The notes under the pieces: generated by a model
What the model was told of the DNA's origin: nothing
The model's database searches: none
The model's input: the letters and a program-made list of their open reading frames with translations, nothing else
Shown here: piece by piece, positions 60,501 to 64,000 of the stretch
Numbering within the stretch: the stretch's first letter is position 1
Layout: every line of letters begins with the position of its first letter
Program-made: the position numbers and the translations under genes
Assembly: GCF_009834535.1 (NCBI RefSeq)
Contig: NC_045696.1
Coordinates: 47,494,001 to 47,558,000, forward strand
Reading direction: 5' to 3'
Source of the DNA: Camelus ferus
Lineage: Eukaryota
Length of the DNA: 64,000 nt

Positions 60501-60729
60501 CATCACGTTCTAATCTGCAGAGAGCGAGCAGAATACATAAACAGAAGCAACAATGCTTCTGTCTAGCATCTTCATGGAAGTCTCTATGCGACTTCAGGTA
60601 AGTGAGGTATTCATAACCAGATACAAATTATCATAAAAACCTGAGATCAACAGCAGGTATGTACAGAAAGTCACACTTCTCCACTGAAAGTTTTGTGTCC
60701 TCTGAAAGTTGGGTAATGCTTTCCCGCAG

Positions 60730-60921
60730 CCACTTCATTCCCCCTTCCCTAAAGCAGCCTCGTCAGGGAGTTTGGAAGCCTCGCTCCTGTGTCTGGTAGC
60801 TTCCTGGCACTGATTACTCTCAGCACATTCTTTCCAAGCGCTTCAGCGTTTCCAGTCTTCAGAAGACCTTGATCTTTTTCTGTGCCATTGCTAATTCTTC
60901 TACATTTTAAAGTCAGTTCTC
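60730..60921 (-). pseudogene. GUCA1C: GUCA1C (GCAP3) last exon, apparently inactivated
   Basis: Minus strand gives GELTL...NGTEKDQGLL...NVLRVISARKLPD and, in shifted frames, PDEAALGK and MK. Recalled human: GELTLEEFINGMAKDQDLLEIVYKSFDFSNVLRVICNGKQPD...SPDKAGLGKVKMK*. Pyrimidine tract present but acceptor reads TGG; indels; stop position reads TGG; expected synteny downstream of TRAT1. Confidence 0.88.
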
Positions 60922-62384
60922 CCAGAAAAAAAAAAAATGAAAGAACAATTATCAAGAGGCTTTGTCTATACCACTCACGAGCATACACAGTATATTCACT
61001 GGTACTTTTACTGATAGTCCTTTGATAACTTTTCATCTCTACCAGACTCTCAATTCCTTATATAGAAAAGCATTCAATGGTAAGATTGCTCATGAAAATA
61101 AAGGTGATGAATACATCTATTTTCATCTTGAGCCGAGAACATCAGGCAATGCATCTGTTCACATGTACGTTTGTACCTCGACACAATGTTGATTATTTGA
61201 CCTTAAATTTTGAAGGTATGACCAAGTCATAGGAGTATGAAGATTGCAGATTTCTAAGATCAGAAGGAAATGACTGTTTTGCAAGGCTGTTTTTAATATT
61301 CTGCTCTCTGAGGAAATAATTCCAAGGACACTCCAAAGCTGTGCAAAAGGTTAAACATTCATTCATTCCATGTGTAATGACTGGTCACTAGTTCTCCTCT
61401 CCTCTTCTGATTTTTGATTCCTAATTTTGTCCCCTTAACTTAAGCATTAGGCCTACGCTGACCAGTCCAGTGCTATAAAACTATCAGCTTTTACCCTCGT
61501 GTTCTGGCCATGATGTTTTCCACTAACCTCATCCCACAAGACAACATTTTCGGGTGATGGGGGTGGGGTTGACTAAACCATTTGGATTGTAATTATGGGT
61601 GTATTCAAGTCGAAAGGTACAGATGCATTTCCTGATCTCAAGGAGGTTGTACTTCATAGGGTTTGTGGCTTGGTGGGAGGTTAGCCAAGGACAAGTGAAG
61701 TACGTTGAGTAGCTAGAAAACGTGCACCTGCGGCAGAAAGTCAGCAGGAACTGAAATCAAGTGTTATACTGCACCTGTGCGTTAATAGATAAAGATCTAA
61801 AACAAATAGACATATCTACAACACCACAGCAGTGACTCAAATATCAGTAAGCATAAAGTCACATTCTCATAAGATACTTTTCAGTTTCCATGGAAAAATA
61901 CAAAAATGTGTGTTTTTTGAGAGAAATCTAATCTTTGTTTCTTGTTTTCCTTATGCCAAAGAAGTCTGTGCAAAACCCCAGCTAACAGCAGGTAGGATTA
62001 GAATCCCAGGGAAAAGGCAACCATGGAATAAACCAAAGTGAGGTAGGAAAATCTGAAAATACAAAGGAGGGTTGCGTGTGTGGGCGGGGAGGGTCGCATG
62101 GAGGCAATGGTGGTAGGGCGGCAGCGGGGGGAGGGTGTCATAAATAACAAAAGAATAACCATCCTTTACAAAGGGAAAACACAGCTGCTAAATTCCCAAA
62201 AGATTTTTCAAATTTCTAGTGGCTCAGCACGACCAAAAAGAGAAGAGTGGAGACAGGGGAGCTGAAGTCGGTTTTGACCAGTTACGACAACACTTCCTCA
62301 TTACCGCTCCTGGCGAGGAGAGAAGCTGCATCCGAAGGGGCTGGAGTGCCGTTGCTGAGGTGGAAAAGAGAAAATAAAACATTT

Positions 62385-62668: not shown

Positions 62669-64000
62669 CTCTTTTCCAAAGTAAGCCAACCTCTACCTGT
62701 AGCAACTTGTCATGCTTACTATTTCTGTCTGACATACTTATTTGGAAGTTTTCCTCACTCCATTTGTTCATTTATTCATCAAACATTTATTAAGCCGTCA
62801 TTACAAGTGCCACATCCTGCACGGCACGGCTGCCACCAGTCCAGCCAGCTACAGAGCAGTGAAGGTGGGAGGGGCTCAGAAAACCCATGCTGATGAATTG
62901 CTTTCCTGTATCCATTGTTTTTAAATGCTGCTTCCTAATTCTCTTTAAGTTGTCTATCGAGTTATGTCCCAACAAATTAAAAGGGTGGTTTCTGGGTCTC
63001 CCTAGAAAAGATGGCCTGTGCAAGTCCAGAAATTTCCCATCAAAAGATCTACTAGCAGAGAGCCAAAGACAAGAGGTGGTTGGGCTGGAGATCGTGGGAC
63101 TCAAAGACCAAAAATGATTTGTTTGTTTTGTTTTATCCTTAAAAACATTTCAATCTTTTTGGGGTATCATTCAGAAATTTAAGAATTTTTATACATTATA
63201 TGAAATATGCACACAACTTGTATCTGCATTATTTAGGGCTGCTTGTTCTGTTGGTGAATATTCTCGCCTCCTGGGGACTCTGAAGTTCGGTGTCATGGGT
63301 GCTTTTCCATTGATCACCACCAGGTTCAGTTTTACTGGTGATAGAACCACTACCCACGAATATTAGCTTTCATCTTGTTTTTGTGATCTGGTTCTTTTGT
63401 TGAATATCTCTCAATCGTGGATTCCTTCTCATTAACATCTTAAATGTCTTTATAACGTCACCAAAAAATTACTCCCTCCTTTCAAAAAGCCAGAATTTAC
63501 TGTGCATGCCCACATGAGCATTTTTTGCTCCAAAGAAGTCAGCCTGGTTAGCAAAGAGCCTGTCTAAAAGGAATTGTTTGTCAATTCTTTGTAAGTCTTT
63601 TAAATTAAAACTTTATGAAAATTTATGCTGGGGCTAGGAAGTGACGAAAGATGAAAATGGGGAGTCCTGGGAAATGAGAACGACCAGATTTTCAAGGGAG
63701 GGTGCAGGATTTTAAACAACAAGCTTTGTATTCAAGGGCAAGGTAGCGCTAGCCGCATTTAGCAGCATTGTGTGGCGGAGCGTGGGCAGCCGCAGTCCCC
63801 TCCCTTCTGTAAGGAAACTGGATTCCCTCAGATCTCCTGGTCGTTCCCAGGTCCCCAGTTTGATCCACAGTGTTGCAGTCTTTCTGGTTAGGTGCTCCAT
63901 AAAATACCTTTATGTTCTGGCCCTGTTTTCTTTTACCCCGAATATCTGCTCAATAACCACCCTCTGTCCTTTCCTCTCTGGCCTTGTTCTGTCTCTTTTC

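What the first reader, a model, noticed from the sequence alone, without database searches (positions are those of the whole stretch)
60830..60853. Clean 24-bp micro-inversion inside the GUCA1C exon
On the coding (-) strand the segment reads L-K-T-[GNAEALGK]-N-V, which is unrelated to the orthologue. Flipping exactly 60830-60853 (CTTTCCAAGCGCTTCAGCGTTTCC) gives L-K-T-[LSKRFSVS]-N-V. That aligns without gaps to recalled human L-E-I-[VYKSFDFS]-N-V, with K, F and S restored. An in-frame coding inversion is a rare, nearly homoplasy-free character that gap-based aligners score as a run of substitutions. Short inverted flanks (ACT/ATT...AAT) would fit template switching, but that mechanism is inference.
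Basis: partly seen in the sequence, partly recalled or inferred. Interest (0 to 1): 0.7.

Follow-up and report, generated by a model that had tools for sequence, protein, structure and literature searches.

The report
Small inversion in dead vision gene
A 22-30 base piece of DNA really has been flipped in the last exon of a retinal gene, but that gene was already reported as broken in camels, so this is an ordinary mutation scar and not a change to a working protein.

Summary
The inversion is real. Against outgroup DNA deduced from two reading frames, the 24 bases match 2 of 24 (horse, bat) as they stand and 19 of 24 when flipped. Four runs from four studies show the window's orientation. (1) It is not exactly 24 bp: the core is 60831-60852 (22 bp) inside a 4-bp inverted repeat, so flips of 22-30 bp give the same product. 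(2) It is not coding: GUCA1C has no open frame in dromedary, alpaca, pig or the ruminants tabulated (PMC10061024). (3) It is not homoplasy-proof: the flanking repeat pre-exists in intact orthologues (10 of 12 pairs in bat), and microinversions can recur. An unnamed close relative (P0002) shares the flip; blue whale does not. Most likely a neutral, repeat-guided template switch in a decaying gene. Size and flanks match published microinversions. I found no published description of this instance, and the scan had not noted it before.

The parts
60831..60852 (.). Minimal inverted core, 22 bp; the ancestral coding orientation now lies on the + strand
   Evidence: Boundary scan and controls; equivalence of 22-30 bp flips
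60853..60856 (.). Inner arm of the flanking inverted repeat, 5' side on the coding strand (ATTG in outgroups; one later change at 60855 in the window)
   Evidence: Pairing profile; P0002 fit
60827..60830 (.). Inner arm of the flanking inverted repeat, 3' side on the coding strand (CAAT in outgroups; one later change at 60830 in the window)
   Evidence: Pairing profile; P0002 fit
60819..60864 (.). Core plus 12-bp imperfect arms: 10 of 12 pairs in bat, 9 horse, 7 marmoset, 5 colugo, 6 in the window today
   Evidence: counts read from the pairing profile, distances 12-23
60749..60921 (-). Remnant of GUCA1C (GCAP3) exon 4, 173 nt to the stop in the laurasiatherian C-terminal frame; frame still open
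   Evidence: exon sizes in PMC10061024 supplement 2
60922..60923 (-). Splice acceptor position reads GG, not AG, behind a polypyrimidine tract (about 60924-60945)
   Evidence: Sequence; intron phase from exon sizes 204+150+88; no outgroup intron DNA available
60903..60909 (-). 7-bp insertion in the EF-hand 4 coding stretch
   Evidence: Alignment to Lycaon and meerkat reconstructions (the marmoset alignment splits it 5+2)
60893..60895 (-). 1-bp deletion that restores the frame (net +6 nt)
60610..60762 (-). 3' region colinear with the blue-whale GUCA1C read-through
   Evidence: tblastn of P0077

Best explanation
A single micro-inversion flipped the 22-bp spacer between two short inverted arms in exon 4 of GUCA1C, on the branch leading to the window's organism and its close relative P0002, most likely after the gene had stopped working. 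SHOWN: the orientation is reversed; the centre is 60841.5; flips up to 30 bp fit and 32 bp fits worse; the arms pre-exist in intact orthologues; the outer arm mismatches were not corrected; length is unchanged; the gene is reported broken. INFERRED: during replication the new strand left its template inside the first 4-bp arm, copied the spacer from the opposite strand using the second arm as microhomology, and returned (event type 1-3-2-4 of the four-point model). With no selection left, it drifted to fixation. Later point changes in the window's lineage (60830, 60855, 60859, 60839) eroded the arms. It has no function.
For: Orientation: 2 v 19 of 24 with null tests. Arms: in the bat reconstruction the best of 525 arm/loop combinations (10 of 12 pairs) has exactly the loop 60831-60852. 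Background over five loop sizes at 63,920 window centres: 27 reach 10 of 12, 211 reach 8 of 12 with four inner pairs, 1,513 have four inner pairs. Shared with P0002: four residues (ETLK) are encoded exactly by the window's orientation, reached by 0 of 3,000 shuffles; un-inverted forms give runs of 1-2. Giving four window sites the outgroup base leaves no residual substitution over 13 residues, and two of these sites (60830, 60855) are inner-arm bases. Dead gene: PMC10061024 supplement 2 lists dromedary exon 1 with +1 and 2 stops, alpaca +1/-1 and 2 stops. Here the acceptor is GG, EF-hand 4 has +7/-1 indels, and conserved residues are replaced on both sides. The eight residues are strongly conserved in 62 orthologues (V 62, F 62, S 62, D 61, K 60), so a working gene would hardly tolerate the flip. 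Type 1-3-2-4 was 45% of 794 human-chimp events (PMC5453318, passages).
Against: The arms are short and imperfect. PMC8755829 (passages) argues that template switching is hard to apply to 3-4 nt or imperfect arms. The 10-of-12 figure is for bat, from a pair of two species (Artibeus, Sturnira). With the window's own right arm the ancestor had as few as 8 of 12 pairs (hand count); colugo has 5, marmoset 7. The stem is the lowest-energy fold only for the bat coding strand and is weak (-4.0 kcal/mol); 7 of 8 outgroup strands fold otherwise. The order of inversion and gene loss is not shown. Over the 31-residue stretch the P0002 fit favours the window's orientation by only one cost unit (9 v 10). 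P0002 is an unnamed gene model, not DNA.
Confidence: 0.6

Rival explanations
1. Same neutral inversion in a dead gene, but made by repair of a double-strand break inside the spacer through microhomology-mediated break-induced replication, using the 4-bp arms.
For: PMC8755829 (passages) proposes this for inversions of 17-33 nt with short or imperfect arms; half of its 59 cases have 4-8 nt arms. Here the outer mismatches at distances 16 and 20 were left uncorrected.
Against: The four-point model needs no long repeat and yields the same product (PMC5453318). Sequence alone cannot separate the two.
Confidence: 0.27
2. The inversion struck while GUCA1C still worked and was the first, or an early, disabling hit. 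It swaps 7-8 conserved residues after EF-hand 4 without a stop or frameshift.
For: It is shared with P0002, whereas four changes nearby are window-specific, so it is among the older lesions. The main frame of exon 4 stays open. The lesions listed for camelids, pig, ruminants and whales differ, which allows separate losses.
Against: Other lesions are shared too: P0002 has G for D and A-R for N-G like the window, and both camelids have +1 and two stops in exon 1. Stops, frameshifts and splice changes are far commoner first hits (general knowledge). All 15 artiodactyl and cetacean rows read show lesions, so relaxation may predate the branch.
Confidence: 0.1
3. No inversion: a cluster of substitutions and small indels, or an assembly error.
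For: An internal palindrome lets a gapped alignment recover part of the forward orientation. Only contigs were laid, and 10 of 23 listed runs are marked as possible sources of the window.
Against: Flipped scores exceed gapped forward scores in 8 of 8 comparisons; null tests. The four runs laid were not among the 10 so marked, although flags X17 as near-identical. X11, X12 and X19 differ from the window nearby yet match over the segment.
Confidence: 0.03

Closest known systems
[quoted passage not shown]
   Same: [quoted passage not shown]
   Different: Those are young and near-exact; this one is older (5 of 24 mismatches) with eroded arms. None of their 59 overlapped coding sequence; this one lies in former coding sequence of a pseudogene.
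Template-switch event type 1-3-2-4 of the four-point model (PMC5453318; passages read)
   Same: Inverts a fragment in place, creates no new repeat, and looks like a substitution cluster in a linear alignment.
   Different: Inferred here from outgroups far more distant than human-chimp; switch points cannot be placed within the 4-bp arms.
Spacer inversions in yeast coding genes (PMC8604942; passages read)
   Same: Spacer flip between inverted arms that changes codons in frame.
   Different: In working genes the spacers were 2-5 bp, arms longer than 9 bp, and at most two residues changed (five in one mixed event). A 22-bp flip changing 7-8 residues fits a gene free of selection.
Avian microinversions (PMC3123225; abstract and first part of Results read)
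   Same: 5-38 bp, median 22 bp; usable as lineage markers.
   Different: Non-coding loci; two were homoplastic; their hotspots showed no stem-loops.
GUCA1C (GCAP3) pseudogenes of artiodactyls (PMC10061024; passages, section 15 and supplement 2 part 3 read)
   Same: Same gene; dromedary and alpaca are listed without an open reading frame.
   Different: That table stops at exons 1-2 for camelids and does not describe exon 4; 'inversion' occurs 0 times in the main text.

Membership tests
Microinversion | Segment matches the reverse complement of the orthologous segment far better than the forward one | tested here: met
   2 v 19 of 24 (horse, bat), 1 v 18, 3 v 17
Microinversion | Colinear flanks, no length change | tested here: met
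   Ungapped alignment to bat: left flank 28 of 33, right 18 of 24
Microinversion | Not a palindrome or chance match | tested here: met
   0 of 200,000 shuffles (6 for marmoset); 1 of 127,954 window 24-mers
Microinversion | Present in independent sequencing data | tested here: met
   4 of 4 runs, 4 studies, contigs only
Inverted-repeat-guided spacer inversion | Inverted arms whose inner edge meets the inversion boundary in the ancestral state | tested here: met
   Four perfect inner pairs in bat and marmoset and implied in P0002; 3 of 4 in horse, 2 of 4 in colugo
Classic quasi-palindrome correction | Imperfect arms converted to perfect arms | tested here: not met
   Mismatches at distances 16 and 20 persist in the window as in all four outgroups
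Replication template switch 1-3-2-4 versus microhomology-mediated break repair | Arises at a fork without a break, or depends on break repair | not testable with these tools
   Both give the same sequence product
In-frame inversion in a functional coding sequence | Gene intact and expressed | tested here: not met
   GG acceptor and +7/-1 indels; exon 1 frameshift and stops in dromedary and alpaca. Exons 1-3 lie outside the window and were not examined; expression was not tested
GUCA1C pseudogene | Orthology to GUCA1C exon 4 and 3' region | tested here: met
Homoplasy-free camelid marker | Present in all camelids, absent elsewhere, single origin | tested here: inconclusive
   Present in three organism labels and in P0002; absent in 62 of 62 in-frame orthologues including blue whale. 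Pig, ruminants and hippo not examined; P0002 unnamed

The most novel reading that the evidence does not exclude
The inversion was the first hit that disabled camelid GUCA1C: one in-frame flip, guided by a latent inverted repeat that intact mammalian GUCA1C genes still carry, replaced 7-8 conserved residues. The same repeat may have flipped independently in other lineages that lost the gene (pig, ruminants, pangolins, hyenas), giving a natural test of how often repeat-flanked spacers invert once selection is lifted.
Probability: 0.1. Interest if true: 0.5.

Novelty: new member of a known kind. Interest (0 to 1): 0.2.

Why it matters
Modestly. It is a clear example of a repeat-flanked microinversion whose arms can still be seen in working orthologues, and a candidate marker for the camelid stem. 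It is a warning for pseudogene dating, because aligners count it as about 20 substitutions or as paired frameshifts (P0002's model needs skips of 1 and 5 bases here), which inflates decay estimates. It changes nothing about the protein or about camel vision, since loss of the gene is published. Hand arithmetic on published rates (59 events in about 1 Gb over roughly 13 My; 0.25 per Mb per My in birds) with a recalled branch of about 50 My gives hundreds to tens of thousands of such events per 2-Gb genome.

Tried and rejected
No whole genome is held for this window, so exons 1-3 and paralogues could not be checked; tblastn finds only exon 4 in the window. Protein searches with the exon's translation found only P0002 among longer proteins (1 of 89 candidates), nothing at near length and nothing among 50% representatives, so no named camelid, pig or ruminant sequence was obtained. 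The cluster look-up gave P0002 no name. Two-frame reconstruction: of 12 isoform pairs, 3 were compatible over 31 residues, 5 ended early with the shorter protein, and 4 became incompatible and were cut. Six pairs were then used, horse re-anchored close to the segment; four span all 24 nt and two span 18. A synonymous/non-synonymous count against a consensus was too small and circular to date the loss; marmoset also showed 7 replacements. My DP could not tell whether P0002 shares the 7-bp insertion or the 1-bp deletion. The repeat finder does not report the arms in today's window. A hairpin-extrusion mechanism was considered and given little weight because the stem is weak. A supposed frameshift behind the segment relative to human was rejected: the window follows the laurasiatherian C-terminal frame, one residue shorter. 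Three runs with 0.00 share are no evidence. The first paper search was swamped by unrelated matches.

Full report
What is there. The - strand from 60922 to 60749 translates without a stop to a GCAP3-like C-terminus. Its only PDB match up to E 10 is human GCAP3 (2ggz_A, E 1.6), which is weak on its own. tblastn of named orthologues places it firmly: bat P0006 at 60922-60782 and the blue-whale read-through P0077 at 60762-60610. Only exon 4 is in the window; intron 3 is about 4.7-12.7 kb in other mammals. Three coded organism labels hold at least 95% of the sampled words, which fits three close species.

Getting outgroup DNA. No mammalian DNA collection was available. However, one search returned predicted isoforms that read exon 4 in two different frames. 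Requiring one DNA string to encode both fixes nearly every base. Four reconstructions span the segment: horse, colugo and marmoset (one species each) and bat (Artibeus plus Sturnira). The dropped pairs are listed under Tried and rejected.

The inversion is real. Matches over 60830-60853, as is versus flipped, are 2 v 19 (horse), 2 v 19 (bat), 1 v 18 (colugo) and 3 v 17 (marmoset) of 24; the flanks match 71-85%. Reversal or complementation alone does not help. Shuffles reach the value in 0 of 200,000 (6 for marmoset), and no other of 127,954 window 24-mers does. Gapped forward alignments score lower in 8 of 8 comparisons. Contigs of four runs from four studies cover the segment with no difference or joint; one of them (X17) is flagged as near-identical to the window. 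At protein level the 22-nt reading gives VSKRFSVS against the commonest orthologue residues VSKSFDFS, 5 of 8 identical.

It is not exactly 24 bp. The five best of 3,081 candidate inversions share the centre 60841.5 and are 22-30 nt long. In the bat and marmoset reconstructions, flips of 22, 24, 26, 28 and 30 nt give an identical product because four base pairs of perfect inverted repeat enclose a 22-nt core; 20 and 32 nt fit worse. Horse slightly favours 28-30 and colugo 22. The breakpoints therefore cannot be placed more closely.

The arms. In bat the repeat extends to 10 of 12 pairs and is the best of 525 arm/loop combinations, with its loop exactly at 60831-60852. Horse has 9, marmoset 7, colugo 5 and the window 6. 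With the window's own right arm, the ancestor had 8-10 (hand count). Background frequencies at window centres are 0.04% for 10 of 12, 0.33% for 8 of 12 with four inner pairs, and 2.4% for four inner pairs alone. The coincidence is therefore unlikely but not overwhelming. The stem is weak and is the lowest-energy fold for 1 of 8 outgroup strands.

When it happened. P0002, an unnamed 201-residue model, shares derived residues with the window but differs by at least 5 of 99 bases; it is probably another camelid (inference). It has six residues where orthologues have eight. Four of them are encoded exactly by the window's orientation, which 0 of 3,000 shuffles achieve. Of 256 mixtures of window and outgroup bases, the best needs no substitution and gives the outgroup base at 60859, 60855, 60839 and 60830. 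So the relative carries the inversion with both inner arms intact, and those four changes are later. Against this, the overall fit differs by only one unit between orientations. All 62 of 102 proteins that hold the main-frame exon, including blue whale, are un-inverted; proteins with a broken frame would not show up in this count.

The gene is dead. Supplement 2 of PMC10061024 lists no open frame for dromedary, alpaca, pig and the ruminants, with a frameshift and two stops in exon 1 of both camelids. In the window the acceptor position reads GG, EF-hand 4 has a 7-bp insertion and a 1-bp deletion, and near-invariant residues are replaced. The eight residues under the inversion are highly conserved in working genes, so fixation after loss is the likeliest order. 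The order is inferred, not shown.

Mechanism. A length-neutral flip of a spacer between short arms, with outer mismatches untouched, is the product of an inter-strand template switch of type 1-3-2-4 (PMC5453318). It is also the product of microhomology-mediated break repair, which PMC8755829 prefers for short or imperfect arms. I put these at about 0.6 and 0.27, a first-hit role at 0.1 and artefact at 0.03.

Comparison and novelty. Size and flanks are typical: 17-33 nt in human-chimp and a median of 22 bp in birds. Homoplasy is documented. I found no description of this instance: 'GUCA1C' with 'inversion' gave 5 papers and 'GUCA1C', 'gene loss', 'camel' gave 1, none on this by title or abstract start (listings only). 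Most subscription papers are not searched. Data Sheet 4 of PMC10061024 was too large to read and only part 3 of 7 of Data Sheet 2 was read; these may bear on camelid exon 4. PMC7954356 (passages) reports template-switch events depleted in coding regions, in line with a dead gene here.

Verdict. It is a new instance of a known kind of mutation, in a known pseudogene. Interest 0.2.

Noticed in passing
window 60839-60848: All four differences from the outgroup inside the core (60839, 60845, 60846, 60848) fall in a small perfect inverted repeat of 4-bp arms around 2 bases. It could be secondary palindrome correction, but it was noticed after the fact and is probably chance.
   Followed up: partly
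window 60749-60921 (-): Exon 4 keeps an open frame to the laurasiatherian stop despite +7, -1, the inversion and a one-residue loss near 60772. An AG three bases downstream of the lost acceptor would also keep the frame. Splicing untested.
   Followed up: partly
window 60812-60859: Four of the five protein-visible differences from P0002 are derived in the window's lineage; P0002 keeps the outgroup state.
   Followed up: partly
window 60926: The A run of the polypyrimidine tract is one base shorter in 3 of 4 runs laid; five single-base variants lie at 61062-61229.
   Followed up: no
proteins P0058-P0100: Many mammals have a predicted second GUCA1C isoform that reads exon 4 in another frame; it ends early in carnivores and Pteropus. 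Useful for deducing DNA; biological reality not examined.
   Followed up: partly
window 60680-60710: A 13-nt direct repeat 18 bases apart in the 3' region, probably a small old duplication or chance.
   Followed up: no
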